From IMG/VR virus record IMGVR_UViG_3300007511_000007, positions 32,001 to 96,000 of that record: a DNA stretch of 64,000 nt; one strand, written 5' to 3'. A model generated the notes under the pieces. The model was not told the origin of the DNA. It worked only from the letters and a program-made list of their open reading frames with translations, and did no database searches. Numbering within the stretch: position 1 is the first letter of the stretch; each line of letters begins with the position of its first letter. The position numbers and the translations under genes are program-made. The DNA is from a virus. Of this stretch, positions 8,346 to 24,869 are shown piece after piece.

Positions 8346-8355
8346 GGCATCCCCC

Positions 8356-9021
8356 CTATATCCGCTGATCGTACACAAGTTCACCCTGTGTAGCATCAGC
8401 AGGCATCTTCAAGACGCCAATGATTGTCGTCCCACCAGCAGCGTTGGCACCCCAACTGTCAGTACACGTATGCGACCGCTCCTGACTGTTGTTGATTGCC
8501 GTGACGTTGGTGAGATAACCGTTCAACGAGGCGACGAGAGCATCCCCCACGGTGTAAACCAGCGCGACACCCGGACCACCAGTGAGGATGTTCTGGGTTT
8601 CGTACAGGGCGTTTCCGTAAGTTCCCTGAGCGGAAACATACGGACCCTTGCCGCTGGCCGTACCGGGAGTATTCTCAAACGTGTTTCCGTTGGCCGTATT
8701 GATGAAAACCCCGAGTGCCCGATGGGTCGGGACTGCTGCGCCAGCAACAGTCGCATTGGGAGCCGCAAGAGGGCCTCCAATGAAATTGCTGCCGCCACCT
8801 GCGTCGGGGCGAGAGAAGGCAACCGAGCCACTCAGCACACCAAGCAACGCAGTGTTGACTTGGGTGGAGACGGTCGCTGCCGTAGTAACGTGAGGGGGAT
8901 TGACCTGAGTGAATGAGTCGTCCGTGAGAACTCCAACGGTGTTACGCACACCGACATGGAGAATTCGCAAGGCCGAGGAACTCTCAGTCCAACCACCGCT
9001 CGCCTGTCCAAGCAAAGGCAT
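8356..9021 (-). CDS. Putative head decoration protein (221 aa)
   Basis: G/T/A-rich beta-type protein directly upstream of the MCP; strong AAGGAGG RBS. Confidence 0.6.
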   Translation of the reverse strand: MPLLGQASGGWTESSSALRILHVGVRNTVGVLTDDSFTQVNPPHVTTAATVSTQVNTALLGVLSGSVAFSRPDAGGGSNFIGGPLAAPNATVAGAAVPTHRALGVFINTANGNTFENTPGTASGKGPYVSAQGTYGNALYETQNILTGGPGVALVYTVGDALVASLNGYLTNVTAINNSQERSHTCTDSWGANAAGGTTIIGVLKMPADATQGELVYDQRI

Positions 9022-10677: not shown

Positions 10678-13362
10678 TCAATGATCTCCCTTTTCGGAGA
10701 TAAATTTGCCGAGCCGGATCAGAGTTTGTTGCTCTGAAGACTTGGGCATACGCCCGAAAGCAGCCCGACAAGAACCTAAAAAATGCCTCAACAAAGCGTG
10801 TTTGTCCTGCGTTCCAACCTTGAGGGTCGTGCGATACAGATCCACTGGAACCTGAATCCCCACAGAAGCGTTATACTTTGCCAATTTCTCTATGAACTCT
10901 ATGTCCGAGGACGCCGTGCGGACTAGCGCGAACACTGCCGCCCTATATGCCACATCCCTCCGATCCTGTGCCGCCTGCTTAACCACATTGTCGTTAGGTT
11001 CCGCAGTTGAATCTTCAGGACTCAGATCGGCAACTTCATCCTCACGTAATTGCTCCCGCACCCTTTTCTTGACCTTGTCCAGAACCATCTTCTGGATATC
11101 GTTTTCCAGATCACCGAAAGGATCTCCACCCCCACCACCGTCATCAGCATCGCCGCCCTCATCTTCATCGGGATCACCCCAATCTCCCTTCTTGAGGGTT
11201 TGAAGAACGTTGGCGGCTTTCTGATATTTGTCTTCTTGCCACTGGGCAGGAGGTGATGACAAGACTAGTTCAGCCTGTTTGAGAACTTCGGGGGAAACGT
11301 CCTTTGCTTCAAGGACATTGCGAAGTACGGCTCCGGTGAATGCCGGAACTTCAACCCACGACGCCTCAATGAACTGAACCCCACCATCTTCTTCACTCTC
11401 ATGACCACAAAGCTCTGCGACCCGATGTTTTTGATTCTTGTCATCGTAGAAAGTGCTGCCTTTCATGAAACGAATGTGCTTACACACTTCCGTTTCATCT
11501 GCGGCAACATGGCCGCAGGTCGTACAGATTGTGAAGTTCGTGAAACAGTTATGAACGACGGCACCCTCGACAACATAAGAATGGTCATCTTCGATCCCAA
11601 GGTCATACACCCAACCCTCATAGACACTCGCCTCAGAGGATTTGACCTTGTAAAGGATATAGTCGTCCACAACATTGAGAGTCCCATCAAAGTGTGAACT
11701 TTCGGGGGTCTTGCTTGTGAATTCCCTTAGCTTGGGGGCTTCGGTATTCCCCACTTTGATGAAAAAGGCGGGAAGTTTGCCTGTCTTTTCATCTCGTATC
11801 CCAATCCCATCTACCACCACTCCTGACGGCTGGCGGGGGCTTCCTTTAATTGAGCACTCTAATCGAGAATAAACCCCACAACGACTCAGCACCGTCTGGA
11901 GTTGTGTTGCCAAGGAATAAGACACCGTAGCGGCAGAAATACTGCCCCCACCGTCCTTCACTAAGCAACCATCTCCATTGATCCATGCGCCTACAAGGTG
12001 TCCAAGGATATGTGTCGGCCACGACATGACTTCAGCAGAAATCTTTTTGCCGTGACTGTATTCCCCCGCATGGCGGTAAAACCATGCCACCATTTCTTGC
12101 CCTGAACAGTGGACCGTGCAAGTATTCCTGTCTTCTCTGTCCTGCAACCATGGTGAATTCGCATCCGGGAACTCTCGCTGGAGCAATTCAACGGTCTCTG
12201 CCGCAAACGTATCCTTTTCTTTTAGTCCGAAATGGAACTGAACCTCAACCGGCTTACCTTCTCGTTTGATGTAACAGCCCTCTGCAAGGAAATATCCAAG
12301 CAACCGAGCTTTGCCAATCGACGCACCTTCGGCATTCTCAACGTCGCGGGATCTTGGAAAACAAAGGTAATCCCCAATCTCAATTTCATCAGCCCTGACC
12401 CATTCAGGCTTCCACGATTTGAGCCGCTCCAGATCCTGTTTTGCTTCCTCAGAGTTCTTCGTGGGGTCATTCGGATTGAAAATTCGCATCTGATGCCCAC
12501 GTTTGAATCGTTGCCCCATCCTCCGTGCTGGATCAACGTGGTGTCTCGGATCGATACTCTCCCCACAACCACACCCGCAGATGGAAGCTGGACGGAACAC
12601 TAAGAACTCGTGGTTTACTGTGGCCGTGATTGCAGACGGGAGTCCCACGGCTTCGACGCTTTGAACCTTCCATGCGCTCCGCATCTGATGCTTGTTATCG
12701 ACCCGTTTGGCTTTCCCCGTGTGAGTAATTACCATATCTCCAATCTGGATATCCTCGATAGGAACTCGGGTACCGTTGTCTAACGAAACCTGAGTCCCAG
12801 GGAGAAAACACCCCATCGATAAGGTCGCAACCTTACCAGAGATGATATCCTTGATGAGTTCTTTGTGCTGCCGATCCGTGGCGACCAGAATATCGATGTA
12901 CAACGATGGCCCAATGTCCCTGGCCACAGCATCAATGATCCGACCTTTGCTCAACTCCTCAAGCTGGATGTGTTCGAGGAAGTTATGTCCCCCGACGAAG
13001 CTCTTGTAGGCTTTGAGGAGAACGCCTCGTGTCCACGCATCGTGGTTGTTGTTAACGAACTTGTCACATTCTGTCTTGATCCGGAAATCCGAAAACTTCC
13101 TCATGATCCGCTGACCATCTTCGGTCACAGAACCAAGTTTGGCGTTCGGAACACTTTCCACATCTACAGAAGCAACAATGGTTGCATGAGATAGCAAATA
13201 CTTCGAGGGGTCAAACGGCTGTCCCAGAATCTCCGACGCTTGTTCAATCAGATTTTTGGAGAGGGTCGTTTTGGGTTTTGACGCCTTCCGGACCTTACTC
13301 CAAGACCGTCCTGTGATCTGCGGTTGGGTTACCGACGCGGCTGCGTATTTAATGAAAGGCAT
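10678..13362 (-). CDS. Putative prohead (maturation) serine protease, intein-containing (894 aa precursor, about 473 aa spliced)
   Basis: NNNHDAW, NFLEH, GRIIDA, LSMGC and FIEASWVEVPAF motifs resemble HK97/assemblin-type proteases; located upstream of the scaffold. Confidence 0.75.
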   Translation of the reverse strand: MPFIKYAAASVTQPQITGRSWSKVRKASKPKTTLSKNLIEQASEILGQPFDPSKYLLSHATIVASVDVESVPNAKLGSVTEDGQRIMRKFSDFRIKTECDKFVNNNHDAWTRGVLLKAYKSFVGGHNFLEHIQLEELSKGRIIDAVARDIGPSLYIDILVATDRQHKELIKDIISGKVATLSMGCFLPGTQVSLDNGTRVPIEDIQIGDMVITHTGKAKRVDNKHQMRSAWKVQSVEAVGLPSAITATVNHEFLVFRPASICGCGCGESIDPRHHVDPARRMGQRFKRGHQMRIFNPNDPTKNSEEAKQDLERLKSWKPEWVRADEIEIGDYLCFPRSRDVENAEGASIGKARLLGYFLAEGCYIKREGKPVEVQFHFGLKEKDTFAAETVELLQREFPDANSPWLQDREDRNTCTVHCSGQEMVAWFYRHAGEYSHGKKISAEVMSWPTHILGHLVGAWINGDGCLVKDGGGSISAATVSYSLATQLQTVLSRCGVYSRLECSIKGSPRQPSGVVVDGIGIRDEKTGKLPAFFIKVGNTEAPKLREFTSKTPESSHFDGTLNVVDDYILYKVKSSEASVYEGWVYDLGIEDDHSYVVEGAVVHNCFTNFTICTTCGHVAADETEVCKHIRFMKGSTFYDDKNQKHRVAELCGHESEEDGGVQFIEASWVEVPAFTGAVLRNVLEAKDVSPEVLKQAELVLSSPPAQWQEDKYQKAANVLQTLKKGDWGDPDEDEGGDADDGGGGGDPFGDLENDIQKMVLDKVKKRVREQLREDEVADLSPEDSTAEPNDNVVKQAAQDRRDVAYRAAVFALVRTASSDIEFIEKLAKYNASVGIQVPVDLYRTTLKVGTQDKHALLRHFLGSCRAAFGRMPKSSEQQTLIRLGKFISEKGDH
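11548..12810 (-). mobile_element. Intein (421 aa) with LAGLIDADG endonuclease in prohead protease
   Basis: N-terminal CFLPGT, block B TVNHEF, LLGYFLAEG and LVGAWINGDG, C-terminal VYDLGI...VVHN followed by +1 Cys. Confidence 0.92.
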
Positions 13363-13937
13363 TAGACCTTCACCTCGACTTCTTTCCCATCAGTCTTGAT
13401 CGAAATCTCGACTTCCTGCTGGGGTTGTCTGGCGATGTCATCCTCCCGAATCAAAAACATGCAACCGGTGCAGCCCATGAGCCGAACCCGCTTCCCTTCT
13501 TGCATCTTGTAAATGGCTTTGCGCAGAGTGTTCTCACGACACCGGGGACAAATGAACTTACCACTGTCCTGTTCCTGTTTCGTGGCCCGATACTTTCGAT
13601 CTTTTGCTCCCCAATACAAAGCCTTCTTGACAAAGGCACTCGCTACACGGGAAGCATTGGGGCCACCCGAAACTTCGTCTACCGGCAATCCCCCGGGCAC
13701 ACTGTCATGTGTGGGAGGATCAACCCAACAACTGTCATTGAGTTTTCGCAACTCTTCGACCGGGTATCTTTTATTGCCGTATGAGAACTGCACTTCTGCC
13801 ATTCCAATTGCAGGGAAAAGAGCAACGATCCGGCCCGCCTGTTCTACAGGCGCAAGCTCAGGGACAACCTGATTACCCACCTCAAAGTGGGTCGCAATCT
13901 GCTGATAATTCGGGTTCAGGTGCCCTTGCCGTTTCAT
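13362..13937 (-). CDS. Hypothetical head-module protein with Zn ribbon (191 aa)
   Basis: CPRC...CTGC; internal RVASAFVKKA tag preceding the Zn domain. Confidence 0.8.
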   Translation of the reverse strand: MKRQGHLNPNYQQIATHFEVGNQVVPELAPVEQAGRIVALFPAIGMAEVQFSYGNKRYPVEELRKLNDSCWVDPPTHDSVPGGLPVDEVSGGPNASRVASAFVKKALYWGAKDRKYRATKQEQDSGKFICPRCRENTLRKAIYKMQEGKRVRLMGCTGCMFLIREDDIARQPQQEVEISIKTDGKEVEVKV

Positions 13938-13945
13938 TTGCCCCT

Positions 13946-15235
13946 CTATTCTGCGGACAGGTCAAAGGAATGGTTCGCCTCCTTCGACTCACCGTCCTCT
14001 TTCTCGTCCTCGCTGGCCAGCTTCGCCACACTCTTGAACGCGCCGTTGATGTCGCCTTCGGCATCCTTGAGCAACTTCATGATGTTGCCCGTTCCGCTCT
14101 TGACCAGACGGGTTCTCTCTGCAAAGCCCTTGAACCACTTCTTGATGTCTCCAGCGAAGTTGAAGATCTTCTTGGATACATTGTCCGCCGCACCGCCCAA
14201 CCAATCTCTGACCGAAACGATCCAGTCAGCAATTCCGGCGGTCTTGACTTCTTCCTTCGTCAACGAAGCACTCTTGGCAACAATCTTAAGGCCCCGCACC
14301 GCGGCTGCAGCGTGGATCAGGTCTTCTTTGGTTTGTTCAAAGATTTCCTCGACGATGCCGCCCGCTTCCGACCCCAACCGCTCAGAAATCTTCTGGAAGA
14401 ACTCACCAGCCTTCTGACCCGGTTTCACTTCGTCTTCCTCAGCCACCATCTGTTCAATACCGGGCACCTTCTCTTGCAAGAAAGCCGTGAAGTTCAACAT
14501 AGCCTTTTCGGTTTCCACCAGATACTTGCCCTTGGCTCGCATCTCTTTGGCAGCTTTCTTCAGTTCATTCAAGCCGTCCTTCTCTTCTTTGGACAAAGCC
14601 TTGAATTTGCTGATGGCCGCTTCAAACTGCTTGGTGAGAATTTCGAGTTCCTGGCGAACCTCAACGACGTGGTTCACTTTTGCCCGAACCTGAGCAGGAC
14701 TCAAACCCGGTAGTGCTTTGATGACCTGCGGACCCGCTGCCAATTTGACATCCTGCACGAGAGTCCGCACTTGCTCAAAAGGGGAGACTTCCTCCGCTAC
14801 CTTTTCGTCTTCAGCCTGCTTCTCGTCTTCGGCTTGCTTTCCCGGCTGCGGTGCTTGCTGATCTTCAACCGTCTTGTCGTTGCCAAGGTCACCGTCTTCG
14901 ACTCTTTCCCGAAGCTCACGGTTTTCCTGCTGTGAGAATTCCCCCTTCATGTAACCTTCGTCGGCATCGCCTTCCTGCGGCCCAGCTTTTTCTTTCCCAA
15001 TATCCTCGGGATCAAAACCAGGCTCTTTCACGGGGTCGTCGCCGGTGAGGGCTTCTTTGCCGATGCCTGCCCGCTTTTCGACGAAATCGGAAAGCATGTC
15101 GCAGCGCAGCGCAAACTCTTTGGCAACTTTCTCTGGAACTCCCAATGCCTCAAAGTCATGCTCAAACAATGACGCCATGTTGTCGAGAGCGGCAGTGACT
15201 TCCAAGGCTCCCTTTTTGGTCATCTTTTGTTCCAT
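13946..15235 (-). CDS. Putative internal head/core protein (429 aa), rich in K-x-A
   Basis: Start reassigned to MEQKM 15235 (GGAGG RBS); KQAEDEKQAEDEKVA repeat; coiled-coil character. Confidence 0.75.
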   Translation of the reverse strand: MEQKMTKKGALEVTAALDNMASLFEHDFEALGVPEKVAKEFALRCDMLSDFVEKRAGIGKEALTGDDPVKEPGFDPEDIGKEKAGPQEGDADEGYMKGEFSQQENRELRERVEDGDLGNDKTVEDQQAPQPGKQAEDEKQAEDEKVAEEVSPFEQVRTLVQDVKLAAGPQVIKALPGLSPAQVRAKVNHVVEVRQELEILTKQFEAAISKFKALSKEEKDGLNELKKAAKEMRAKGKYLVETEKAMLNFTAFLQEKVPGIEQMVAEEDEVKPGQKAGEFFQKISERLGSEAGGIVEEIFEQTKEDLIHAAAAVRGLKIVAKSASLTKEEVKTAGIADWIVSVRDWLGGAADNVSKKIFNFAGDIKKWFKGFAERTRLVKSGTGNIMKLLKDAEGDINGAFKSVAKLASEDEKEDGESKEANHSFDLSAE

Positions 15236-15335
15236 CTTCTCTTCCTCCGTAAGTTTCAAAATCAGCCCCCGACCTACGGGGGAAATTCTCTTTTGCAACG
15301 CAAAGAACGGCATCGACTGTTTGACAGTCTTCCGC

Positions 15336-15379: not shown

Positions 15380-18300
15380 TTATTTACCACCAAGAGGTGG
15401 CTCAGTCTTAAACTTATCGCCCCGCTCCGGGTCTCGATCCCGAAGCATCTCTTGGATCAATTGCAACGCTCGATTCCCCTCCTGAGGGAACTCCGCTAAG
15501 GCCGAAGCAACTGATTCCATCTGCGCCAATTCCAGTTCTTTGCCCAGTTCTCGAATTTCGTCTTCAGAGGCGTCACTCTTTATCGCTTCAAGGAAAGTCT
15601 CTACCTGTGCGCCAGTGTCCCGAAGACAAGAATCAAGCGTCTGCGATACCTTCTTCTCGACATTCTTGGTCTTCTTGTCCTTTTTCTTCTTTCCCTTCTC
15701 GCCGTCCTCTGCGCCTTCGTCCTCATCCAACTGTTCATAGGCACTCTTGATTGCAGTATGAGAATAGGTCATGTCATTGAGGAGTAATCTTTCCAACATA
15801 TTCCTGGCATAGGCCGCTTGAGCCTCCCCAACTACCGGCCTCCCATCTTCGCCCACCTCATTGAGAGCATCAAAAATATCGGCATAGGGGCTGTCTTCAC
15901 CGCCAGCAAACTCGTAAAGTTGCTGATTGTTCATCTGCCCCATGGCTCCCTTGATGCCCTCTCTACCCTGGGGGCCACAAAAGTCTTGCATTGATCCAAG
16001 TAGCAGAGAGGGGTCTTGTCCCGGGGTGTCCTTCAAAGCCTTGGCTAAAGTGACCACCTGTGGAGAAAGCTCCTGCCCGTCGGGGAGATCGGGGGTTTCA
16101 TCGTTTACGACCTGAGCCAGGCACACTCCGTTGTACATCTGATCTAACTTCATCAGTCGTTCTTTGTCAGGCTCATCTTCGTTCATCAATTCATCAAGTT
16201 GCCCTCGGATATTCTCAGAAAGCTCCTCACGTTCTTTCGGAGATGCCTCCGTGAGAGCTTTGTAACTATCCTTGGCGAGGTCTTTGGAATCGGGATCGAC
16301 CCCAAGTGACTCGATTGTGCCTTCAGGTGTTTCCCGCCACTTCTTTTCGGCTACCTCCTTCTTCTCCTGTTGTTTCTTCTCGGCCTTTTGTTGTTTCTGC
16401 TTTTCGGCTACAACCTTTTCGCCCTCTTCAAGAGTAGTGAGGATTATGTCCATCGAATTCTTATCTTCGAGCTTCCCAAGCAATCGCTCTGCCCTGAACT
16501 TTGCCTCTTCAAGAGCATCCTTCGCTTTCTCCGCATCCTCAATCGCAAAGGCACTTTCCAGATTACCAAGTGCTTCCTCCAGGGCTGCTTTCTCCTCATC
16601 GGGGCCTTCTAATTCCGCAAGCTCCTTCTTTGCCCCGGAGACCCCTGCCTCTTCCTCTTTGGGTTCCTTCTCGCTTTCACCCTGCTCATCGGCTTCATCA
16701 CTTTTGTACTTCGCCTGTTCTTCAGGGCTGAGGCTGTTCCAGCCCACCTGTGTAACTTCACCGCCTTCGGTTTGGTGATCAAACTTCTTGCCCACAGCCC
16801 ATTCAGGAGTATCCCCGGCCATCATCAAATGCCAGAATGCCACTCTCCCCGGAGAGGGGATGTCCTCGGAAATGAGCCAACGAGATGCAATCCTCTTGTA
16901 GTTCAAGGACATGTCTTTGTCGTCACCACGATCTCCGTGGTCAACATCGGGATCATCCTCGGGTTTGACCTGCTCCCGGCGAAGATCATTGCGAGGCGGC
17001 TTCTTCTTTGGTTCTGGCCGCACCAAACGTTCCGCTTCTTCGTCTTCCTTTTCCCCATGGTCTTTGGTGGCTTGCTTGAACTTTTCCTCACACGACCCGC
17101 ACACAGCGGGCATCTCAAGGACTTCTGCGTGTTCATGTACTCTTTGTGGACAACGGCATTGGTTTTTGTTTCCGCAGATCGGGCACGTCAAACGCCAATG
17201 CTCAGGCTGCAGGATCTGCATAATCTGAGCTACAGTCTCCCCTCTCCGAACATGCAGGTCATACAAACGGTCGCCCGAAGCACTCCGATAGAGCTTCAGT
17301 TTTGCTTCATAAAGGGCTGACTGGCGCACCCCTTGATCACAATCTTCCAGATAGCCTGCCGCAATCAACTCATCCACAGCATCGTCATCCACCTGGTGAC
17401 CCCGAAGAAAGTACCCTTTTGGAGTCTTCAGAATAGGCTGCTGGTGAATGTCCATGTCCTGCATAATGGCCTGTTCATATCCGGTTAGGCTGGATTGCAG
17501 TCCCAGATCTCCCCGGAGCACCCACTCATCCCCATCACCTTCTGGGCCATCGGTAGCATTGTTGATGTTGATGATGGCAACCTTCTTTCCTTTCTGCACC
17601 GACCCGTCATGGACATAAGAATCTTCCAGCCCCGGCACCAGATAGTCGGAACGCAAGATCGAAGTTGTGTGCCCAACGATGTCTGCCACTTCCTCAAGGG
17701 CTTTCTTGAACTCTTCCTTGAGGATCTTGTCTTTTTCTTTCCTCGCATGGGGGAGGGCCGGGCCTTTCTTACGAACTTTTCCCAGAGCCTTTCGCATCTC
17801 ACGGTTAGCGTGGAAGCCTCGCATATCCTTGGCAGTGATCTCGTAAGGTTTGAGATACTCATTGATATCAGATGCGCTCACGTCGGGGAGGACTTCTTCG
17901 TCATCTCCCTTCCCTTTGGCCGCTGCTTTCAAGGCAGAAATCAACTTTGAGTCCGTAACTTCCTTGGTGTGTTTGACCCCAGACTTGCCAGTATACTTCA
18001 GGACCGCCTTCCCTTCTTTAAAGGATATATGGCTGGCTTTCCATCCCGTAACCCCGTAGTGGCCTTTGTCTGCGGAGTCCTCATTCCCGACTCGCTCATA
18101 AGTCTCGTTGATGAGAGCAACCGCCATCGCAGTTTGTTTCTTCTTGTCGTCCTTGGCGTTGAGATCCTTCTCTACTTGCTTACGGAGCTTGGGGTATTCC
18201 TTCTCAAGCTGTTCGAGCTTCTTAGCCTTCTCCCGGTGCCGATGCTGAACTTGCCCATCTGTGTATTCATAGACGACCTGCTCATCGCCATCCTTGTTCT

Positions 18301-21300
18301 TGATCTTTTTCTTGTCTTTGTACTTGGCCGCAACCCGGATCGCCTGTGCTACCATTCTACCGGCTTCTTTGCTGATCCCCTCCCAGTAAGGGTCGACGGA
18401 ATAATCAGAGGGCAGTTCACCCTCCTCCTTGAGCTTCTCGACTCCTCTCTCAACATAGATGTCTTGATAGTCCCGGTCATTTCGGATCACCCAAGTACAG
18501 AACTTCCACAAAGCGTCCAACTCTTCTCGTCTCGGGGGGCGAGCAATTTCAGGATGAGCCAAATAATGCTCAACGATGTCGTGAAGGGCTGGTTCAAGAA
18601 TATCCGCTGGGCCGTCCCCGATCACATAACCTGCTTGATTACCTGGGTCCATCTGCAAAGTCTCAGGATGAATTGCCCAATACCCGGCTTGCTTCGAGAA
18701 ACGAATTGCTACCCTCTTCGAACTCCCCTCAACGCCCCGACGGGCCAGTTGGAAACGCTTCCCCAACTCCGGGTAGAAACTAAAAACTTCCTGCGGTACT
18801 TCTTTGCCCCCCATCAGAGCCTTTGCGATTTCCCTCTTGTGCCTTGACCGATAAAACGCCAAATCCATCTCTCGTTTAGCGTCAAGTTCCTTCTTTTCCT
18901 TGCGGTACCCCACTTCTTCAGCAAACTGTTTTTCTAGCCTCTGACGCATAAAGACCTTTTTTGCCAATCCCTTGAGAACCCCTTTCTCTCTCCTTGTTCG
19001 GTTCGGGGTCGCAAACAAAGTGCCCCCGAGAAACGTAGCGAACTCTGCCTCCGTCGCCATTTCTCTAGGGTTAATGCCCTGTTCTCTCACCCATGCATCA
19101 AAAGGCAGATCCGGGCGTCTGATCTCTCGGAGCAGTCCTGAGTCACGGATGAACTCAGGTAAGGACATCTGCCAAAACTCCTTTCGAGATGCCCCTACCC
19201 TTTTCTCCAAATGCTCGTGCATTTCAGCATTGTTACTCCCCCACCCATGCGCGAGGGGATTTGCTGGAGTCAATGAGATCTTCTCCAGCTTCGGAAGTCC
19301 CCACACCTCGATGTCCTCCACATCCCACGCCCCTGTGGGCAGCTTCCCCTTGAATTCGCTATCAACGCCCTCCAGATAGCCCAACGTCGTATGCGGGCGA
19401 TAAATGTGCGGTGAGACATCTACAAGGTCAAAGCCTGCCTCCTGGTACGCCTCAGCAAGCCTCCAGCGTAATTCGGAGATAGGTCTCTCAAACCGAATGT
19501 TCATATGCGGGATCGCCAAGTCTTTCTCAGCATTACGGAAATAATCGACCTGATGGAACTCGGCTTTGGTCGTCGGCGTACCCAACCCACCAGGGATGAT
19601 GGTTTCGGCAATATCGAGGAATTCCTGTTCTCGCCCTTTCACATCCCCGACAATCAAGAAGGTGATATGCTCCGGGGAATCATCATTGGCCAGTTCAGGA
19701 AACTGCTTCCCGAGTTTTTCGGGAACTCGGATGAAGAATCCTGCCGATGTGGAATCCCCCGTGACGCTGCCGTCCCCACCGGCAGTCTTACGGCTTTTCT
19801 CTTCCCAATACTCTGGGGGGTTGGACCATTCGTTCGACTCTCCCAGCAATTGCTTTGCTCTCTGAGAGTACCACCACAAAGTGGAGCTTGCAGAATCAAT
19901 GAACTCTTCCACTGCTTTGGGCTTCGGTCCCGGTGGCTCATCTTTCAAACTGTATGGGACTCCAATATCAAACCCACTGTTTTTGACCCCAATCCACGCA
20001 CGCCTCAGTTCCTCCTTCTGCTCCTCAGGAAGTGCCATGACTTGCTGCATGGTCACATTGTAATGCTCACAAATGAGATCAACCCACGGATTTAGCTTTC
20101 TATCGGTGATATTTTTGATGCTCCGAAGGAGGTGGTCAACTTCCACGCCATCTATAGGTCGGCCTAATGCGTCCCGGTACTCCATGTCGATTCTGTCAAT
20201 GAAGTCCCCGGCCATATCCAAGGGGCCATCCCCAGTCCAATGCCCCGCATCGGGAACCTCTGGAATTTTCTCTGGATTCAACTCCCACCATGAGGCAGTT
20301 TTCAGGAACCGGGTTGCTACCTTTTGAGCAGGCCCCCTACGCTTCGTGATTTCGTCCATGACCGCATCCGTTAGATCGGGTTTCTTTGCCAACTCGGGCT
20401 TCTCCAGCATCAACTCTCGGGCAATCTGGAATGGAATCTGTCGTTCCGGGCCTTCCAAATTATGAATCTCAAACACTAGCCGTTGATCCACAAGAGGGCG
20501 TTGCAGGAGCTTAAGGAAGTTGTCCGCTTCCTTCGGCTTCATGCCCAGAGTGATCTTACGCAACGTTTCTTGCTGCTCAGGGGACAAGAATGAGATTGGA
20601 GACCGAACCTGAATCCCCAATCCCGCAAGATCCAACAAGAGTCCGACCCCCTTATCATTCAGGTGTCCGGAAAGGTAGCTGGCAAACGCGTTGTTCTCCC
20701 GCACCATCTCAGCGATGACTTTGAGAAGCCCCAACTTCTGCATGAGCTTCAGAGAGTCTCGGGCGTTCTTTTCCCTGATAACATTCTCCACCATGAGCTT
20801 GCCGATTGCTTCCCAAGGAGCTTTCTTCATCTTGGGGGCATTGCGTTTGATAGCGGCAGCAATCTGGGGTGGAATCGTGAAACCGTACTTAGCAACAAAC
20901 TTCACGGCACGCAATAAGCGAGTTGGATCATCAGAGAACGTTTTGTCTGGATCAGACGGGCAACGGAGTTCTCCTTTCTGAAGATCACGTAAGCCACATC
21001 CCGTGATATCCACGATCTCAGCTTTATCCGGCCCCTTAGCGATCTCAGCCAATTCCCACATCAAGGTATTGAGCGTAAATTCCCGCCTCAACACATCTTC
21101 TTTAATTGTCGCAGGTTCAACCGTATGGGGTTTGTACCCTTTCCCGCCCTGGCCTCCATATGACTCTTTTCGGGCATTGGCAATCTCAAGTACCTCACCC
21201 TTCATGTCATGGCCGTCCAGATCCCAATGATCCTTCACAGTAACGATAGCAACCCCGTAGTTGTTCGTGACCACACTGGTTCTGACAGGGATCGCTTTGA

Positions 21301-21523
21301 CCAACTGGTTCGCAAACCATGCGGAGTCTCTGCCCTTCAACGCAATTGTATCAATTACAACATCCACATCCTTGATTGGAGCTTTGAGGAGATGATTTCG
21401 AACAGCCCCACCCACGATGTAAATGTGTTTGTCTGCCCGAGATTTCTTTGCGACTGAGGCCAGAAACTTGGCGAGGATTATTGCTCGCTTGTTTCTTCCT
21501 CGAATAGCTGTTTTTGAAACCAC
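15380..21523 (-). CDS. 2047-aa multi-domain protein: CCA/poly(A) polymerase-family nucleotidyltransferase + 2H phosphoesterase + DNA topoisomerase IB + unknown domains
   Basis: GGAVRN/DVDV/EDVLRREFTLN/DDPTRLLRAVKF; HITF and HTTL; YERVGN/GKSG/AKDMR/VGHT/SDY. GTG start with GAGGT RBS. Confidence 0.88.
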   Translation of the reverse strand: MVSKTAIRGRNKRAIILAKFLASVAKKSRADKHIYIVGGAVRNHLLKAPIKDVDVVIDTIALKGRDSAWFANQLVKAIPVRTSVVTNNYGVAIVTVKDHWDLDGHDMKGEVLEIANARKESYGGQGGKGYKPHTVEPATIKEDVLRREFTLNTLMWELAEIAKGPDKAEIVDITGCGLRDLQKGELRCPSDPDKTFSDDPTRLLRAVKFVAKYGFTIPPQIAAAIKRNAPKMKKAPWEAIGKLMVENVIREKNARDSLKLMQKLGLLKVIAEMVRENNAFASYLSGHLNDKGVGLLLDLAGLGIQVRSPISFLSPEQQETLRKITLGMKPKEADNFLKLLQRPLVDQRLVFEIHNLEGPERQIPFQIARELMLEKPELAKKPDLTDAVMDEITKRRGPAQKVATRFLKTASWWELNPEKIPEVPDAGHWTGDGPLDMAGDFIDRIDMEYRDALGRPIDGVEVDHLLRSIKNITDRKLNPWVDLICEHYNVTMQQVMALPEEQKEELRRAWIGVKNSGFDIGVPYSLKDEPPGPKPKAVEEFIDSASSTLWWYSQRAKQLLGESNEWSNPPEYWEEKSRKTAGGDGSVTGDSTSAGFFIRVPEKLGKQFPELANDDSPEHITFLIVGDVKGREQEFLDIAETIIPGGLGTPTTKAEFHQVDYFRNAEKDLAIPHMNIRFERPISELRWRLAEAYQEAGFDLVDVSPHIYRPHTTLGYLEGVDSEFKGKLPTGAWDVEDIEVWGLPKLEKISLTPANPLAHGWGSNNAEMHEHLEKRVGASRKEFWQMSLPEFIRDSGLLREIRRPDLPFDAWVREQGINPREMATEAEFATFLGGTLFATPNRTRREKGVLKGLAKKVFMRQRLEKQFAEEVGYRKEKKELDAKREMDLAFYRSRHKREIAKALMGGKEVPQEVFSFYPELGKRFQLARRGVEGSSKRVAIRFSKQAGYWAIHPETLQMDPGNQAGYVIGDGPADILEPALHDIVEHYLAHPEIARPPRREELDALWKFCTWVIRNDRDYQDIYVERGVEKLKEEGELPSDYSVDPYWEGISKEAGRMVAQAIRVAAKYKDKKKIKNKDGDEQVVYEYTDGQVQHRHREKAKKLEQLEKEYPKLRKQVEKDLNAKDDKKKQTAMAVALINETYERVGNEDSADKGHYGVTGWKASHISFKEGKAVLKYTGKSGVKHTKEVTDSKLISALKAAAKGKGDDEEVLPDVSASDINEYLKPYEITAKDMRGFHANREMRKALGKVRKKGPALPHARKEKDKILKEEFKKALEEVADIVGHTTSILRSDYLVPGLEDSYVHDGSVQKGKKVAIININNATDGPEGDGDEWVLRGDLGLQSSLTGYEQAIMQDMDIHQQPILKTPKGYFLRGHQVDDDAVDELIAAGYLEDCDQGVRQSALYEAKLKLYRSASGDRLYDLHVRRGETVAQIMQILQPEHWRLTCPICGNKNQCRCPQRVHEHAEVLEMPAVCGSCEEKFKQATKDHGEKEDEEAERLVRPEPKKKPPRNDLRREQVKPEDDPDVDHGDRGDDKDMSLNYKRIASRWLISEDIPSPGRVAFWHLMMAGDTPEWAVGKKFDHQTEGGEVTQVGWNSLSPEEQAKYKSDEADEQGESEKEPKEEEAGVSGAKKELAELEGPDEEKAALEEALGNLESAFAIEDAEKAKDALEEAKFRAERLLGKLEDKNSMDIILTTLEEGEKVVAEKQKQQKAEKKQQEKKEVAEKKWRETPEGTIESLGVDPDSKDLAKDSYKALTEASPKEREELSENIRGQLDELMNEDEPDKERLMKLDQMYNGVCLAQVVNDETPDLPDGQELSPQVVTLAKALKDTPGQDPSLLLGSMQDFCGPQGREGIKGAMGQMNNQQLYEFAGGEDSPYADIFDALNEVGEDGRPVVGEAQAAYARNMLERLLLNDMTYSHTAIKSAYEQLDEDEGAEDGEKGKKKKDKKTKNVEKKVSQTLDSCLRDTGAQVETFLEAIKSDASEDEIRELGKELELAQMESVASALAEFPQEGNRALQLIQEMLRDRDPERGDKFKTEPPLGGK

Positions 21524-21569: not shown

Positions 21570-24500
21570 CTAGAAGCGACCGCCATCATCCTTCGGCGGC
21601 TCATACTCCAAACCCAATTTCTCAGCGATCTGCTTCACAATTTCCGTACCTTCCACAAGTTTCGCAGCAACATCGTTGTAGACGCCCCGCACCATCTCAT
21701 TGAAGGTAGGATCGTTTACTGTCCACAGATCCCGCTCCACCTTCTCACGGGTTCTTTCAGGATCAATGTTCAGAAGCTCAAGAATAATCTCGATGTCCAG
21801 CGACCCTTTCTGGTACAGGTTGAAGAGATGGTCGAACGTGTCGGAGTTGTCCCTCAAAGCCAACCGGGTAAAGGACACAGAGGGGTAGATGACATTCTCG
21901 TCATCATACTCATCAGCCTCAATGAACCCCATACGGCGGCACATTGGTTTGAAAAGTTGCTCCTCAATGAAGTCTTGAAGGATCTCACGCAAGAGCATGT
22001 ATCTGGTATTGATGACCTCAAGATTGATCCGGTCTCCCGAATAGCTGGATTCTCCTGAAAGAAGACTTTCTGTGACACCCAGACCCGAATACATCTGGCG
22101 ATCTGTGCGGTCATAAAGGTTCGACCAATCCGGAACTCGTGTGTCAGACCCCATCTCCTCCCAATTAACCTGGAAGTTGGTGACGATTGAGAAATCGGGG
22201 TCTGCCAGAGCCATATCAACCTGATCCCGCAATTCCTCGATATCGTCCACATCCATACCCTCGGCCCAGACAATTCTGATGGGAGTCATGTGACGAGAAG
22301 CTATCGACGTTTCCGCCTGCCTAATCTTGTCTCGAAAAACGAGTATTCTCATGCAGTTGTGTACCAAAACCTCATGTGTTACTAGAGATTCGTCGTCTTC
22401 TACATCGAAGGAATAAACGATGCCTTTGTAATGCACTGCCTGTGTTTCCTTGATTTTTCTCAACAGCTTCTTTGATCCGGACCAACCAGTGTCTTTGCCC
22501 GCCCGATTCACTGCGGAGAGCTTACCCTCCCCTTTCACTGTCTGCTCGGCCCACTTCTTGACATCCTCGGTGGAGCAACAAGAGAGACCCCAAAAGTCTT
22601 TCTTTCCGTATTGGTATGTCTTCTCTTGCCACCCGGCTGCTGTTTTCCACTTCCGGGACCAATTACGTGCTTGCCGACTCCTTTTTTTAATCTGTGTTTT
22701 GATCCCAACACGATTACAAAGAAGATGGATCTGATGAATCAACAAGCGGTTATCGAGTTGGATTTCAATTTGCGCTGCGTTCTCATCCCAATGCAACCAA
22801 CCATCTGTATCCAGCAATCCCTTAAGGAATGCTAAGATCCGTTCCTCGCCCAAATTGAAGACCCATTCAGGGACACTTTTACCCGAAGCCCCATGTCCAA
22901 ACTCTTCCATGAACCATCGGGCCAAAAGCATATCTCCGATTCTGATTTGTGTGGCCTCCAGGTCCGCTTCACCCACCCCAAACAAGTTCCCTCTGTCCAA
23001 GCCCCCGAATTGACTTAAGACGCCTTCAACTTTTTGTTTGAGTTTCTCATCTCGTTCACCCTTCCCAAAAGTCCATGCCAGACTATGCGTGTTGAGTAGA
23101 GAATCTTTTTGTGTCCAGACACAACCATCCCCCAACCAGGTTCCAACCAGATACATAAAGTCATCTGATATAGAGATCTTGGAAACAGGGGAACTCAAAC
23201 TTTTCGTGACGACTGCTCCTGGGACACGGATTTCTTTTGCTATTGGATGCCAAAGAGTTCCGTTTCCCTTTCCTCGGCCTTTGAACACCTTTTCGGTCTG
23301 CAGGCCAATTTGATTCCGCAGCCGTGAGACACAGGCACGGAGACCTGCATAGGTATGTCCAGTGATCCCCCTAATGGCTTCATAAGAAGCCTCAGTCGGT
23401 TCTTCTAATCCCTTGAGCCAATTGATCAGACGGGTAGACTTCTTGACGGCTTCTATCCGCCCTGCGTCATCCTGCTCATATTCAAAAGAAACAACAAGCT
23501 CTCCCGCTCCTGATGTGTCTGCCTCTATAGCAGTGATTTTCCGCTCCCGTCTCTCAAACCCTTTCTGGTTCTCCCTGAAGCGTCTATCAACTTCAAGTTC
23601 TTTTCCCCGCCACCAGTCGGCCAAATCAATCTCAGTAATCGGATTGGACTCAGGAACCACTTGCGCTTCTTTAACCAAATCGCCTTCTTTGAACTCTTGT
23701 GCTTCAATCCACTCTTCTGTCTCATCTTCGTTGACCCGCAGGATGCGGTGATCGGAAGTTACTGCCAAAGGCCGTTCAATACCCGCCACAGAAAGAATAG
23801 TTATTTCCTCATCTACGGGGCGAGAGCCTTTCTGAGCTTTACGGAATCTACCTTTGTGGGTCAACAGAGAATCCACTTCAACGTCCACGTCTTCTACAGG
23901 AATTTGCTGAATGATACCGTTTCGTTTGACTGTGACCAGAGTGCCGGGTAGTAAGCAACGTTCCAGTAAGGAAGAACCCCGTGGCTCATATTGGGACTTC
24001 TTTCTGCACATGTAGTAGACAAAACTACCCGCGTCCGGATCTGTGTTCAAAGGAATGTTTCGTCCTTGAAGAATTGCAGACGTGACATCCCCCGGCATCG
24101 AATTTACAACCCGAATTGCGTCTCTGTCTCCCATATTGGCTTTCTGGATCACGTCCTTGGTCTTCGAGTCGGCTACCAACTCAATGATCTTCTCGTCCGT
24201 GAACGGGAATGCCTCCATATGAATCTGCTCAGGGGGTAGCACTCTGAGCGCAGTCCATCCTTTGTAGTTCTTCTTGAGCCACCCAACCGCCCGTGCATTG
24301 GCGTCTTCACGCAATTGCCATCGTTCAATTGCTTTGCCGTCTGGGGTCAGTTCCCGAATCGCCTCTTCACGAATCTCTTTCGGCATCTCCGGATTATTGT
24401 CCTCACAGAAAATGAAAACTTCGCCCAGCAAATGGTAGTCGTGGACAATCTCAATCAGACGATGGAGAATCTCATTTTTCTTGCACCACCGCTCACAAAA

Positions 24501-24869
24501 TTCGAGGGCTTTCTCCGCAAGCGTCCGGTTCTTGGCCTTGGGCATCCCCAAACGAAGTTTGGAGAGAGGCAGTTCCGTGTGGAGGTCAATCGCCTGCCCG
24601 ACAAAACAATCAGTTTTGTACCAGAACCGGTAATAGTTCCGTTGCTCGTCAATGCTCTGTGGAAGTTCAAGGAAGTCCGTGGATAACTCAGGAGAATAAA
24701 AGTTCCCCCCGGAACCCCCAACGGTACCACCTACCGTTGGGTAAGCCACCTTTGAGCGCATCGCAGAAGACATGATCTTGCGGGGTTTCCCCGTGGACAC
24801 TTTGGGTCTCGGGGGGATCTTCTTTACCTCTACGGCAGTGTCATTCTGTGCCCGTTCTTCTTTGGTCAT
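21570..24869 (-). CDS. Portal protein, intein-containing (1099 aa precursor, about 565 aa spliced)
   Basis: Follows terminase; size after splicing and portal-like segments (QAIDLHTELP, YHLLGEVFIF, RGSSLLERC, GLGVTESLL). Confidence 0.8.
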   Translation of the reverse strand: MTKEERAQNDTAVEVKKIPPRPKVSTGKPRKIMSSAMRSKVAYPTVGGTVGGSGGNFYSPELSTDFLELPQSIDEQRNYYRFWYKTDCFVGQAIDLHTELPLSKLRLGMPKAKNRTLAEKALEFCERWCKKNEILHRLIEIVHDYHLLGEVFIFCEDNNPEMPKEIREEAIRELTPDGKAIERWQLREDANARAVGWLKKNYKGWTALRVLPPEQIHMEAFPFTDEKIIELVADSKTKDVIQKANMGDRDAIRVVNSMPGDVTSAILQGRNIPLNTDPDAGSFVYYMCRKKSQYEPRGSSLLERCLLPGTLVTVKRNGIIQQIPVEDVDVEVDSLLTHKGRFRKAQKGSRPVDEEITILSVAGIERPLAVTSDHRILRVNEDETEEWIEAQEFKEGDLVKEAQVVPESNPITEIDLADWWRGKELEVDRRFRENQKGFERRERKITAIEADTSGAGELVVSFEYEQDDAGRIEAVKKSTRLINWLKGLEEPTEASYEAIRGITGHTYAGLRACVSRLRNQIGLQTEKVFKGRGKGNGTLWHPIAKEIRVPGAVVTKSLSSPVSKISISDDFMYLVGTWLGDGCVWTQKDSLLNTHSLAWTFGKGERDEKLKQKVEGVLSQFGGLDRGNLFGVGEADLEATQIRIGDMLLARWFMEEFGHGASGKSVPEWVFNLGEERILAFLKGLLDTDGWLHWDENAAQIEIQLDNRLLIHQIHLLCNRVGIKTQIKKRSRQARNWSRKWKTAAGWQEKTYQYGKKDFWGLSCCSTEDVKKWAEQTVKGEGKLSAVNRAGKDTGWSGSKKLLRKIKETQAVHYKGIVYSFDVEDDESLVTHEVLVHNCMRILVFRDKIRQAETSIASRHMTPIRIVWAEGMDVDDIEELRDQVDMALADPDFSIVTNFQVNWEEMGSDTRVPDWSNLYDRTDRQMYSGLGVTESLLSGESSYSGDRINLEVINTRYMLLREILQDFIEEQLFKPMCRRMGFIEADEYDDENVIYPSVSFTRLALRDNSDTFDHLFNLYQKGSLDIEIILELLNIDPERTREKVERDLWTVNDPTFNEMVRGVYNDVAAKLVEGTEIVKQIAEKLGLEYEPPKDDGGRF
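22356..23957 (-). mobile_element. Intein (534 aa) with LAGLIDADG endonuclease in portal
   Basis: N-terminal CLLPGT, block B TSDHRI, LVGTWLGDG and FLKGLLDTDG, C-terminal VYSFDV...LVHN followed by +1 Cys. Confidence 0.92.

What the first reader, a model, noticed from the sequence alone, without database searches (positions are those of the whole stretch)
15380..21523. 2047-aa virion polyprotein: tRNA nucleotidyltransferase, 2H phosphoesterase and topoisomerase IB strung between tags and cut sites
Seen order: MVSKTA / CCA-type NTase / KVATRFLKTA / domain X / SRKTA / 2H enzyme / KRVGA / unknown / RVAIRFSKQA / second domain X / IRVAA / Topo IB / KKVA / unknown and Zn finger / FKQA / acidic segment, RIASRWL, RVAFWHLMMA / helical domain. 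Each recognisable domain starts right after a [KR]-x-A-like site. The gene lies between portal and prohead protease, behind a late promoter motif. Inference: the protein is packaged as one chain, cut by the maturation protease and injected with the DNA as a kit of counter-defence and DNA-handling enzymes. Module content would be expected to vary between related phages.
Basis: partly seen in the sequence, partly recalled or inferred. Interest (0 to 1): 0.85.

Follow-up and report, generated by a model that had tools for sequence, protein, structure and literature searches.

The report
Tagged enzyme-cargo polyprotein of huge phage
An uncultured giant-phage relative encodes, among its head-building genes, one 2047-residue chain of swappable enzymes (a tRNA-end rebuilding enzyme, a cyclic-phosphate esterase, a DNA topoisomerase IB), each introduced by the same short peptide tag that also labels about twenty separate proteins per genome; it is probably an enzyme kit loaded into the capsid, but loading and cutting have not been shown.

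Summary
Window 15380-21523 (-) is one intact 2047-aa ORF. It carries a class II tRNA nucleotidyltransferase, a LigT-like 2H phosphoesterase with both H-x-T motifs, and a topoisomerase IB with its full catalytic pentad. It lies just after the portal gene and two small genes before the prohead protease.

It belongs to a family of at least 200 protein clusters from relatives of phage G. Where genome sizes are known these are huge phages. All members share a C-terminal backbone; the front modules are swapped, reordered or split into separate genes.

A helix tag, R-V-A-x-R-[Y/F/W]-L, sits at module starts. Blocks of homology begin at it about 8 times more often than chance.

The same tag sits at the N- or C-end of 17-20 unlinked proteins in each of two near-complete relatives. 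These include stand-alone ART-PolyVal and 2H enzymes.

K-[T/Q]-A sites also precede module starts.

Best reading: a polyvalent head-cargo protein in the sense of Iyer et al. 2017, with an address tag and possible protease cut sites. Packaging, cleavage and injection remain inference.

This scan found the same family earlier on other DNA (e1-5362060, e1-5815567, e1-5658117, e1-5410369).

The parts
15380..21523 (-). Whole ORF, 2047 aa, GTG start: polyvalent head-cargo protein
20339..21496 (-). aa 10-395: class II tRNA nucleotidyltransferase (CCA-adding type) module. The G-G-x-V-R and D-x-D motifs and the E-D-x-x-R-R motif are present.
20294..20323 (-). aa 401-410: helix tag ending in K-T-A, first copy
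   Evidence: predicted helix, low confidence
19796..20293 (-). aa 411-576: 'domain X', unknown, helical, low-confidence model. Only its first ~30 residues recur behind the later tag.
19781..19795 (-). aa 577-581: R-K-T-A site in front of the 2H module; conserved in the closest homologue
19262..19774 (-). aa 584-754: LigT-like 2H phosphoesterase with two H-x-T motifs
19172..19201 (-). aa 775-784: degenerate tag. The closest homologue has an intact tag plus a 107-aa insertion here.
18722..19171 (-). aa 785-934: unknown helical module, shared with only three homologues
18686..18715 (-). aa 937-946: helix tag ending in K-Q-A, second copy
18344..18685 (-). aa 947-1060: second 'domain X' region, unknown
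17591..18337 (-). aa 1063-1311: topoisomerase IB module. It opens with its own tag variant and keeps the catalytic R1144, K1180, R1235, H1285 and Y1294.
17576..17587 (-). aa 1313-1316: K-K-V-A site behind the topoisomerase (K-K-T-A in the closest homologue)
17084..17575 (-). aa 1317-1480: small alpha/beta domain (aa 1344-1419, pLDDT 80-90) followed by a Cys-rich Zn-ribbon-like stretch; function unknown
16895..17080 (-). aa 1482-1543: K-Q-A site and the conserved acidic / P-K-K-K-P-P-R segment. This is the most widely kept piece of the family and is present even in 350-500-aa minimal forms.
16814..16894 (-). aa 1544-1570: two adjacent helix tags. The first (N-Y-K-R-[V/I]-A-x-R-W-L) is conserved across the family.
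15401..16726 (-). aa 1600-2041: conserved all-alpha C-terminal domain (pLDDT 80-95) with no recognised fold; the family's backbone
21570..24869 (-). Portal gene (carries an intein), directly upstream
13946..15313 (-). 455-aa conserved neighbour, fused to the C-end of the polyprotein in several relatives
13362..13937 (-). 191-aa conserved neighbour: SH3/Tudor-like N-domain read from the alignment, an internal tag-like helix, and a C-P-x-C...C-P-x-C zinc ribbon
10678..13362 (-). Prohead protease gene (carries an intein); homologous to the Tunturi_5 head maturation protease and to phage G gp19
7470..8396 (-). Major capsid protein, 308 aa, unusually conserved across the clade

Best explanation
The ORF encodes a phage polyvalent protein that is probably loaded into the procapsid as cargo.

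Build of the protein:
- The conserved rear part is the family backbone and probable capsid anchor. It consists of topoisomerase IB, an acidic segment with a P-K-K-K-P-P-R motif, two helix tags and a 440-residue all-alpha domain.
- In front of it sit exchangeable enzyme modules.
- Each module is introduced by a short, probably amphipathic helix, R-V-A-x-R-[Y/F/W]-L, and often by a [K/R]-x-A site.

Proposed mechanism:
- The helix acts as an address or encapsulation peptide that binds a conserved procapsid component. The same peptide labels stand-alone cargo proteins elsewhere in the genome.
- Polyproteins arise when neighbouring tagged cargo genes fuse.
- After assembly the prohead protease may cut at the [K/R]-x-A sites.
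- The pieces would leave the capsid with the DNA.

Likely roles in the new host:
- The 2H esterase and the CCA-type nucleotidyltransferase would heal and rebuild RNA (tRNA) 3' ends damaged by defence nucleases. Alternatively, the 2H module destroys cyclic-nucleotide alarm signals.
- Topoisomerase IB would relax the entering DNA, as the encapsidated poxvirus enzyme supports early events.

Shown here: domain identities and intact active sites, modular exchange at the tags, tag-plus-module units both fused and free, selection on the peptide rather than the DNA, bias of tags towards protein ends, and conserved placement in the head gene block.

Inferred only: packaging, the receptor of the tag, cleavage, injection and the roles in the host.
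For: Domains and active sites.

Family and module exchange:
- 38 long homologues carry the nucleotidyltransferase and topoisomerase IB together with varying ART-PolyVal, NUDIX, PAP2, superoxide dismutase, DUF5661 or inteins.
- The order of the nucleotidyltransferase and the 2H module is swapped in many of them.
- The closest homologue has an ART-PolyVal module inserted between two tags.
- A profile of the rear part finds 277 cluster representatives, 201 at E <= 1e-10, with lengths of 313-3381 aa. In nearly all rows listed the module lies in the C-terminal half.
- Topoisomerase IB is present in 21 of 22 sampled members, together with InPase, HAD_SAK_1, PAP2 and GGACT.

Gene order: 80 viral loci share TerL, portal, a variable slot, the 455-aa gene, the 191-aa gene, the protease, an EF-hand protein, a 221-aa protein and the capsid protein. 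The slot is often split into 2-4 ORFs, or the 455-aa protein is fused to it.

Tags at module borders: across 245 tag sites in 127 non-redundant proteins, homology-block starts pile up from -10 to +29 residues around the tag. The summed share of each protein's block starts is 51, against about 7 expected, and every bin exceeds the maximum of 200 randomisations.

Tags elsewhere in genomes:
- This contig: 8 hits outside the polyprotein against 0.54 expected.
- The 536-kb relative: 21 hits in 17 proteins against 3.4 expected.
- The 485-kb relative: 22 hits in 20 proteins against 2.4 expected.
- 25 of 43 stand-alone tags lie within 30 residues of a protein end, against 9.2 expected.

Tagged stand-alone proteins include ART-PolyVal (tag at residue 7 or 20), a 2H esterase, RNase II/R, PIN-PhoH, an SNF2 helicase and a C39-like peptidase.

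Synonymous codon positions within the tags are random, so selection acts on the peptide.

[K/R]-x-A sites away from helix tags precede block starts 1.6-3.3 times more often than background. Control motifs do not.

18 of the 26 homologues that carry the nucleotidyltransferase also carry the 2H module, usually next to it.
Against: - There are no virion proteomics and no cultured member, so packaging, cutting and injection are untested.
- The nearest cultured relatives (Tunturi_5 and phage G) lack both the tag and the polyprotein.
- The C-terminal backbone has no recognised fold and no MuF or portal-binding signature.
- The tag is absent from orthologues of the protease and of the 476-aa and 221-aa head proteins, so it is not the protease's general recognition site.
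- No residue behind the tag is strictly conserved, and only 48 of 252 tags are followed by [K/R]-x-A.
- The boundary statistics count related sequences that are not independent.
- The tagged set (helicase, RNases, ADP-ribosyltransferases, DnaJ) would also fit proteins gathered at some cytoplasmic hub.
- The contig is probably only about a quarter of a genome of several hundred kb.
Confidence: 0.6

Rival explanations
1. The protein is an uncut multi-enzyme 'Swiss army knife'. It acts as one chain, packaged or not. The helices and [K/R]-x-A sites are merely conserved linker elements between domains, inherited together with each module.
For: No processing peptidase domain is found in the chain. 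No residue behind the tag is strictly conserved. Multi-domain RNA-repair proteins that act uncut are established; Pfam names one module found in relatives after 'Swiss Army Knife RNA repair proteins' (HAD_SAK_1).
Against: The same helix stands at the extreme ends of many single-domain proteins, where no linker is needed. Its sequence is kept while the modules diverge to 40-50% identity. The modules have unrelated substrates.
Confidence: 0.15
2. The tag addresses proteins to something other than the capsid. The target could be a phage- or host-encoded hub such as a replication or transcription body, a compartment, the DNA itself or a chaperone. On this reading the polyprotein is a cytoplasmic late enzyme complex.
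For: The tagged proteins are mostly nucleic-acid enzymes and a DnaJ protein. Short helices at protein ends are typical of hub-binding motifs in general. The tag is basic.
Against: The fused forms are always encoded inside the head block, directly after the portal gene. ART-PolyVal, 2H and InPase are hallmark domains of proteins predicted to be injected (PMC5512222). The head-block proteins of 191 aa and 455 aa carry related motifs.
Confidence: 0.17
3. The motif is purely a cut site of the prohead protease, comparable to L/I-x-E in T4, and has no addressing role.
For: Module borders coincide with it. The P1 alanine resembles the (V/L)-x-A|S rule of herpesvirus assemblin. That similarity is recalled from memory and was not tested here.
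Against: Tags lie 3-15 residues from C-termini, where cutting is pointless. The tag is absent from the protease itself and from the 476-aa and 221-aa head-protein orthologues.
Confidence: 0.06
4. The long ORF is an assembly or gene-calling artefact that joins separate genes.
For: In some relatives the same modules are separate ORFs. No read-level check was possible.
Against: A 2571-aa homologue is collinear at 48-78% identity over the aligned blocks, and dozens of proteins of 1500-3400 aa from independent samples share the layout. The ORF has no stops or frame changes.
Confidence: 0.02

Closest known systems
Phage-type polyvalent proteins (Iyer, Burroughs, Anand, de Souza, Aravind 2017, PMC5512222)
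   Same: Many unrelated effector enzymes sit in one polypeptide encoded among virion genes. 2H is present here, and ART-PolyVal and InPase are present in relatives. Delivery with the DNA is predicted in both cases.
   Different: In the passages I searched, that paper does not name topoisomerase IB or a CCA-type nucleotidyltransferase as modules. It proposes an in-chain zincin-like peptidase for processing, which this protein lacks. It mentions no linker (the word is absent from its text). I did not read the whole paper for tags or for a conserved C-terminal backbone.
T4 internal proteins IPI-III and Alt, with a capsid-targeting sequence removed by the gp21 prohead protease (reviewed in PMC9958956 and PMC9026906, which I listed in a search but did not read; the details are from my own knowledge)
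   Same: A short terminal peptide is shared by otherwise unrelated cargo, including an ADP-ribosyltransferase, and the cargo is encoded partly outside the head gene block. Here, a possible cut site lies right behind the tag.
   Different: The motif is different: R-V-A-x-R-aromatic-L with [K/R]-x-A, not L/I-x-E. The tags here also occur at C-termini and inside polyproteins. Cargo genes fuse into chains of up to about 3400 aa. Nothing has been shown experimentally.
Phage P1 Dar antirestriction cargo (DarB, DdrB and others; PMC9024508 listed but not read; processing of DdrB and DarA is cited in PMC5512222)
   Same: Large helicase-type and other enzymes are packed into the head and injected. Some are processed.
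   Different: I know of no shared sequence tag across the P1 cargo. P1 cargo proteins are separate proteins, not module chains.
Encapsulation peptides of encapsulins and bacterial microcompartments (from my own knowledge; not tested here)
   Same: A short, probably amphipathic helix at either end of diverse enzymes, joined by a poorly conserved linker. The capsid protein here is an HK97-type shell protein of encapsulin-like size without a delta domain.
   Different: No contact with the shell has been shown, and the sequence motif is unrelated. The container here is a DNA-filled virion.
Poxvirus encapsidated topoisomerase IB (from my own knowledge; structures 2h7f and 1a41 matched)
   Same: A type IB enzyme with the same catalytic pentad. 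The poxvirus enzyme is carried in the particle, as I infer for this one.
   Different: Here it is the hub of a modular phage head protein. Sequence similarity is only remote (E 7.8e-6).

Membership tests
Polyvalent proteins (Iyer et al. 2017) | Several unrelated catalytic or effector domains in one polypeptide | tested here: met
   Nucleotidyltransferase, 2H esterase and topoisomerase IB plus at least four unknown modules
Polyvalent proteins (Iyer et al. 2017) | Encoded among late or virion genes of a phage | tested here: met
   Directly after the portal gene in this window. In the related loci a gene with these modules mostly lies between portal and protease; in a few the topoisomerase gene lies elsewhere.
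Polyvalent proteins (Iyer et al. 2017) | Hallmark domains of the class (ART-PolyVal, 2H, InPase, MuF and others) | tested here: met
   2H is present here. ART-PolyVal is present in the closest homologue and InPase in a relative. MuF was not found.
Polyvalent proteins (Iyer et al. 2017) | In-chain processing peptidase (zincin-like MPTase) | tested here: not met
   No peptidase family in the Pfam scan at E <= 1. This feature is frequent in the class but not obligatory.
Class II tRNA nucleotidyltransferase / poly(A) polymerase family | Pol-beta head domain with the G-G-x-V-R and D-x-D motifs and an E-D-x-x-R nucleotide-selection motif | tested here: met
   Pfam PF01743 at 5.8e-15 and PF12627 at 2.3e-4. 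The motifs are readable. PDB 9ns4 matches at 1.4e-18.
Class II tRNA nucleotidyltransferase / poly(A) polymerase family | CCA-adding rather than A-adding or poly(A) activity | not testable with these tools
   Sequence alone does not separate these activities reliably.
2H phosphoesterase superfamily (LigT/CPDase clade) | Two H-x-[T/S] motifs on a duplicated beta-alpha lobe fold | tested here: met
   H619-x-T621 and H711-x-T713 are conserved. Foldseek matches LigT 4qak and 5ldm and CPDase 5h7e at E 3e-5 to 6e-5. Pfam itself gave no hit on this copy.
Acb1-type anti-CBASS 2H phosphodiesterase | Membership of the Acb1 family (PF23474) | tested here: inconclusive
   No Pfam hit. The Atlas feature score of 0.88 is a lead only. 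LigT and CPDase structures rank higher than the viral cGAMP phosphodiesterase 9bkq.
Type IB topoisomerase | Catalytic pentad Arg-Lys-Arg-His-Tyr in order | tested here: met
   R1144, K1180, R1235, H1285 and Y1294 are invariant in alignment A1. Pfam PF01028 matches at 3e-27.
T4-type capsid-targeting sequence cargo | Short shared terminal peptide on unrelated cargo proteins | tested here: met
   64 distinct N-terminal and 24 distinct C-terminal tagged ORFs. Enrichment is 6-9 fold over shuffles. The bias towards protein ends has P < 1e-4.
T4-type capsid-targeting sequence cargo | Presence in the prohead and removal of the tag by the prohead protease | not testable with these tools
   There is no cultured member.
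MuF / SPP1 gp7 head protein family | Phage_Mu_F domain | tested here: inconclusive
   No Pfam hit at E <= 1, and no fold match for the C-terminal domain. Only the position after the portal gene is shared.

The most novel reading that the evidence does not exclude
R-V-A-x-R-[Y/F/W]-L is a true encapsulation peptide. It docks on the inner face of the unusually conserved capsid protein or on the 191-aa adaptor. If so, this huge-phage clade runs a programmable protein-packaging system: any protein given the tag at either end is loaded, cargo genes fuse freely into polyproteins, and the head protease re-separates them at [K/R]-x-A. The virion cargo proteome (about 20 proteins per genome, including RNA-repair enzymes, ADP-ribosyltransferases, RNases, a helicase and topoisomerase IB) could then be read directly from sequence.
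Probability: 0.3. Interest if true: 0.85.

Novelty: new variant of a known kind. Interest (0 to 1): 0.6.

Why it matters
If the tag is an address label, the injected protein arsenal of uncultured huge phages can be predicted from sequence alone.

It would also show how giant polyvalent proteins evolve: by fusion and fission of tagged cargo genes.

A ready-made tRNA-end repair kit and a topoisomerase delivered with the DNA would be a new first-minute counter-defence and DNA-handling strategy.

A 10-residue loading tag would be a practical handle for packaging foreign proteins into capsids.

In the papers I could search, neither topoisomerase IB nor a CCA-type enzyme is described as phage head cargo, and this tag is not described at all.

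Within this scan the family and the general theme have been met several times, so this window adds quantification rather than a first sighting.

Tried and rejected
The planned job was capsid protein + 191-aa protein + protease domain against the acidic/tag segment, so no binding test was made.

Searches that found nothing useful:
- Megablast of the gene against phage records found nothing.
- A single-protein scan of viral contigs found nothing. The alignment-based scan succeeded.
- The C-terminal domain gave no significant match. Foldseek against PDB had a best E of 0.22. BFVD gave only weak rows, some of them 'internal virion protein' of podophages, with E >= 6e-3. VIA-align gave only generic three-helix bundles with Z <= 10.3, below the helical noise level. 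The Atlas returned nothing.
- 'Domain X' and the aa 785-934 module gave low-confidence models and no family.
- The intein-free protease orthologue has no PDB or Pfam match, so its class and specificity stay unknown.

Ideas tested and dropped:
- Homology between 'domain X' and the 191-aa protein: only the 13-residue motif is shared.
- The tag as a DNA-level repeat or recombination site: rejected, because synonymous codon positions are random.
- The tag as the general protease recognition site: unlikely, because it is absent from the protease and from the 476-aa and 221-aa head-protein orthologues.
- Cultured relatives as models: Tunturi_5 and phage G share the capsid protein, portal and protease but have neither the tag nor the polyprotein, so they cannot serve.
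- The stand-alone topoisomerase gene first seen in record LR745208.1 is simply that phage's minimal form of the slot protein, as later gene-order comparison showed.

Full report
**What is there.** Window 15380-21523 on the minus strand is one uninterrupted ORF of 2047 codons. It starts at a GTG preceded by a Shine-Dalgarno-like sequence.

- Pfam and PHROGs place a class II tRNA nucleotidyltransferase head domain at aa 34-274. Its nearest solved relatives are tRNA nucleotidyltransferases and poly(A) polymerases.
- Pfam places a type IB topoisomerase core at aa 1093-1289. In an alignment with nine homologues the catalytic Arg, Lys, Arg, His and Tyr are all invariant.
Even so, both H-x-T motifs are conserved in 20 homologous modules. 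An AlphaFold model of aa 584-754 (pLDDT 85-96) matches LigT, Deinococcus CPDase and rotavirus VP3 phosphodiesterase with Foldseek probability 1.0.

So the three named enzymes are real and look active.

**Surroundings.** All genes run on the minus strand in this order:
- large terminase;
- a portal gene interrupted by an intein;
- the polyprotein;
- a 455-aa gene;
- a 191-aa gene;
- a prohead protease, also interrupted by an intein;
- a 476-aa EF-hand protein;
- a 221-aa protein;
- a 308-aa major capsid protein.

The capsid protein is 87% identical to that of a 485-kb uncultured phage, 49% to Tunturiibacter phage Tunturi_5 and 38% to Bacillus phage G. The contig is 112 kb. Similar-sized contigs of relatives are rated only 23-31% complete. 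The source is therefore probably a huge phage of several hundred kb.

**A large modular family.** A database search returned 38 proteins of 1140-3129 aa. Most carry topoisomerase IB and many the nucleotidyltransferase, alongside differing further domains: ART-PolyVal, NUDIX, PAP2, superoxide dismutase, DUF5661 and inteins.

BLAST against them cuts the protein into these blocks:
- nucleotidyltransferase, aa ~10-395;
- 2H esterase, aa ~578-755;
- topoisomerase, aa ~1060-1311;
- a highly conserved acidic segment, aa ~1482-1560;
- a C-terminal domain, aa ~1740-1940 by BLAST, or aa ~1617-2000 by profile.

In many homologues the 2H module stands in front of the nucleotidyltransferase, not behind it. 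18 of the 26 proteins that carry the nucleotidyltransferase also carry 2H. The closest homologue is 78% identical over the first 780 residues. It carries an ART-PolyVal module inserted between two tags.

A profile of the rear part finds 277 cluster representatives among 1.84 billion, with lengths of 313 to 3381 aa. In nearly all rows listed the module lies in the C-terminal half. In 22 sampled members topoisomerase IB is nearly universal, and InPase, HAD_SAK_1, PAP2 and GGACT appear as extras.

Eighty viral loci show the same head gene order. The slot holds proteins from about 290 aa to more than 3000 aa. It is often split into two to four ORFs, and in several phages it is fused to the 455-aa neighbour. 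Minimal forms keep only the topoisomerase and/or the acidic segment, which has an invariant P-x-x-x-P-P-R-x-D core. The prediction that module content varies between relatives is therefore fully borne out.

**The tag.** A position matrix was built only from the homologues. Its consensus is A-x-R-V-A-A-R-[Y/W/F]-L-x-[K/A].

- Module borders. In 127 non-redundant family proteins there are 245 sites. The starts of homology blocks concentrate between -10 and +29 residues of the tag. The summed share is 51 against about 7 expected, and every bin lies above the maximum of 200 randomisations. Block ends concentrate just before the tag. When the slot is split, the separate ORFs begin with the tag at residues 5-8.
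- Structure. AlphaFold draws the tags as short helices inside low-confidence, probably flexible linkers.
- Peptide or DNA. Synonymous third codon positions in 14 copies from this genome are no more alike than the genome average (26% against 25-31%). The selection is on the peptide, not on a DNA repeat.

**The tag outside the polyprotein.** On this contig it occurs 8 times in other proteins against 0.54 expected. The carriers are an SNF2 helicase, a C39-like peptidase (tag at its C-end), DUF2958 and unknown proteins; a weaker copy (below the threshold used) opens a DUF4240 protein. Most lie in one operon beyond the window's end.

I fetched two nearly complete relatives. The tag marks 17 proteins in the 536-kb genome (21 hits against 3.4 expected). 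It marks 20 proteins in the 485-kb genome (22 hits against 2.4 expected). Of 43 stand-alone copies, 25 lie within 30 residues of an N- or C-terminus against 9.2 expected. Some end the protein outright.

The tagged stand-alone proteins include two ART-PolyVal enzymes with the tag at residue 7 or 20, a 2H esterase, an RNase II/R with a dsRNA-binding domain, a PIN-PhoH protein, a metallophosphatase and a DnaJ protein. The 485-kb phage has a slot protein with only the topoisomerase, yet it encodes its 2H and ART modules elsewhere, each with the tag. Tag plus module is thus the unit, whether fused or free.

The tag is absent from terminase, protease, the 476-aa and the 221-aa protein orthologues, and gives only two weak hits among 46 portal orthologues. 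A related conserved helix sits inside the 191-aa neighbour, in front of its zinc ribbon. The capsid protein and the 455-aa protein carry conserved look-alike stretches of uncertain meaning.

**The K-x-A sites.** K-[T/Q]-A occurs five times in this protein against 1.2 expected, always at a block border. Most of these sites are kept as K-x-A in the closest homologue.

Across the family I looked at sites away from helix tags. K-[T/Q]-A, K-x-A and R-x-A are followed by block starts 3.3, 1.6 and 1.9 times more often than background. None of 1000 random placements reaches these values. K-x-G, E-x-A, A-x-K and similar controls sit at background.

However, related proteins were counted as if they were independent. 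In addition, only 48 of 252 helix tags are followed by such a site.

**How it probably works.** I read the protein as a polyvalent head-cargo protein. The conserved rear part (topoisomerase IB, acidic/P-P-R segment, double tag, all-alpha domain) is the probable anchor in the procapsid. Its gene always follows the portal gene and sometimes fuses with the next head gene.

The helix tag most likely binds a conserved procapsid component. The capsid protein is strikingly conserved across the clade: median 88.7% identity, against 53% for terminase and 62% for portal. That makes it a candidate receptor, as is the clade-specific 191-aa protein.

The prohead protease may cut behind [K/R]-x-A. Its family could not be assigned.

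The recurring 2H-nucleotidyltransferase pair, together with phosphatase modules in relatives, fits healing of 2',3'-cyclic phosphate ends and rebuilding of tRNA 3' ends. A signal-degrading role for the 2H module is the alternative (PMC5512222).

None of packaging, cutting or injection is shown.

**Comparison with what is known.** The closest described class is the phage-type polyvalent proteins of Iyer et al. 2017, which include 2H, ART-PolyVal and InPase. The passages of that paper I retrieved do not name topoisomerase IB or a CCA-type enzyme as modules. It proposes an internal metallopeptidase for processing, and none is found here.

The T4 capsid-targeting sequence on internal proteins and Alt is the closest functional analogue. 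The P1 Dar cargo and the encapsulation peptides of encapsulins and microcompartments are further analogues; these comparisons rest on my own knowledge. Literature searches found no description of this family or tag.

**Earlier notes of this scan.** Other first readers noted the shared tag and a promoter-like motif on this genome. I tested both.

- The tag enrichment holds.
- A strict 12-mer occurs six times on the coding strand, never on the other strand, against 0.33 expected. It always lies 15-51 nt before a gene start. The copy in front of the polyprotein is only a variant with one inserted base.

Follow-up agents have already described the same family on other DNA, among them what appears to be the 536-kb genome I used. 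They also described other tag types in other huge phages. My results agree with theirs and add the boundary statistics, the two-genome census, the fused-versus-free module evidence and the codon test.

**Verdict.** This is a new variant of a known kind. It is interesting mainly for the sequence-readable cargo tag, and it is limited by the complete lack of experimental or structural evidence for loading and cutting.

Noticed in passing
window 21570-24869 (-) and 10678-13362 (-): Both the portal gene and the prohead protease gene are interrupted by inteins with LAGLIDADG endonuclease domains. Intein-free orthologues are about 565 aa and about 480 aa.
   Followed up: partly
window 7470-8396 (-): The major capsid protein is far more conserved across the clade (median 88.7% identity) than terminase (53%), portal (62%) or protease (47%). 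It contains a conserved internal stretch that resembles the cargo tag.
   Followed up: partly
window 9213-10643 (-): The 476-aa head-block protein carries a pair of canonical EF-hand calcium-binding motifs, also present in the L005 orthologue. This is unusual for a scaffold-position protein.
   Followed up: no
window 13362-13937 (-): The conserved 191-aa protein has four parts: an SH3/Tudor-like N-domain, a P-G-G-rich linker, a tag-like helix and a C-P-x-C...C-P-x-C zinc ribbon. Its stop overlaps the protease start. The proline-rich P-K-K-K-P-P-R motif of the polyprotein could be its ligand; this is speculation.
   Followed up: partly
window 63370-64000 and beyond (genome 95370-109650; L002 1370-15650): A second cluster of tagged genes, on the minus strand: a 79-aa and a 659-aa protein, an SNF2 helicase (1239 aa), an 862-aa protein, a C39-like peptidase (tag at its C-end), a DUF4240 protein and a DUF2958 protein. 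The promoter-like 12-mer precedes two of these genes (the 659-aa and the DUF2958 protein).
   Followed up: partly
window 2060, 32833, 39703; genome 97591, 109685, 111819 (minus strand): The 12-mer T-A-[A/G/T]-T-(pyrimidine)5-T-A-T occurs six times on the coding strand and never on the other strand (0.33 expected). Each copy lies 15-51 nt upstream of a gene start, so it may be a phage promoter element.
   Followed up: partly
L003 12007-12080 (+) and 2421-2503 (-): The contig encodes a tRNA with anticodon CTA (it reads the amber stop; ARAGORN calls it Pyl) and a tRNA-Ser(TGA).
   Followed up: no
window 4592-7282 (-): An 896-aa ORF combines LAGLIDADG endonuclease hits with DNA-methyltransferase-like hits. 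It is probably another intein- or endonuclease-invaded gene.
   Followed up: no
whole contig G000: Contigs of 105-142 kb from relatives are rated 23-31% complete, and complete relatives are 447-536 kb. This 112-kb contig is therefore probably a fragment of a huge phage genome.
   Followed up: partly
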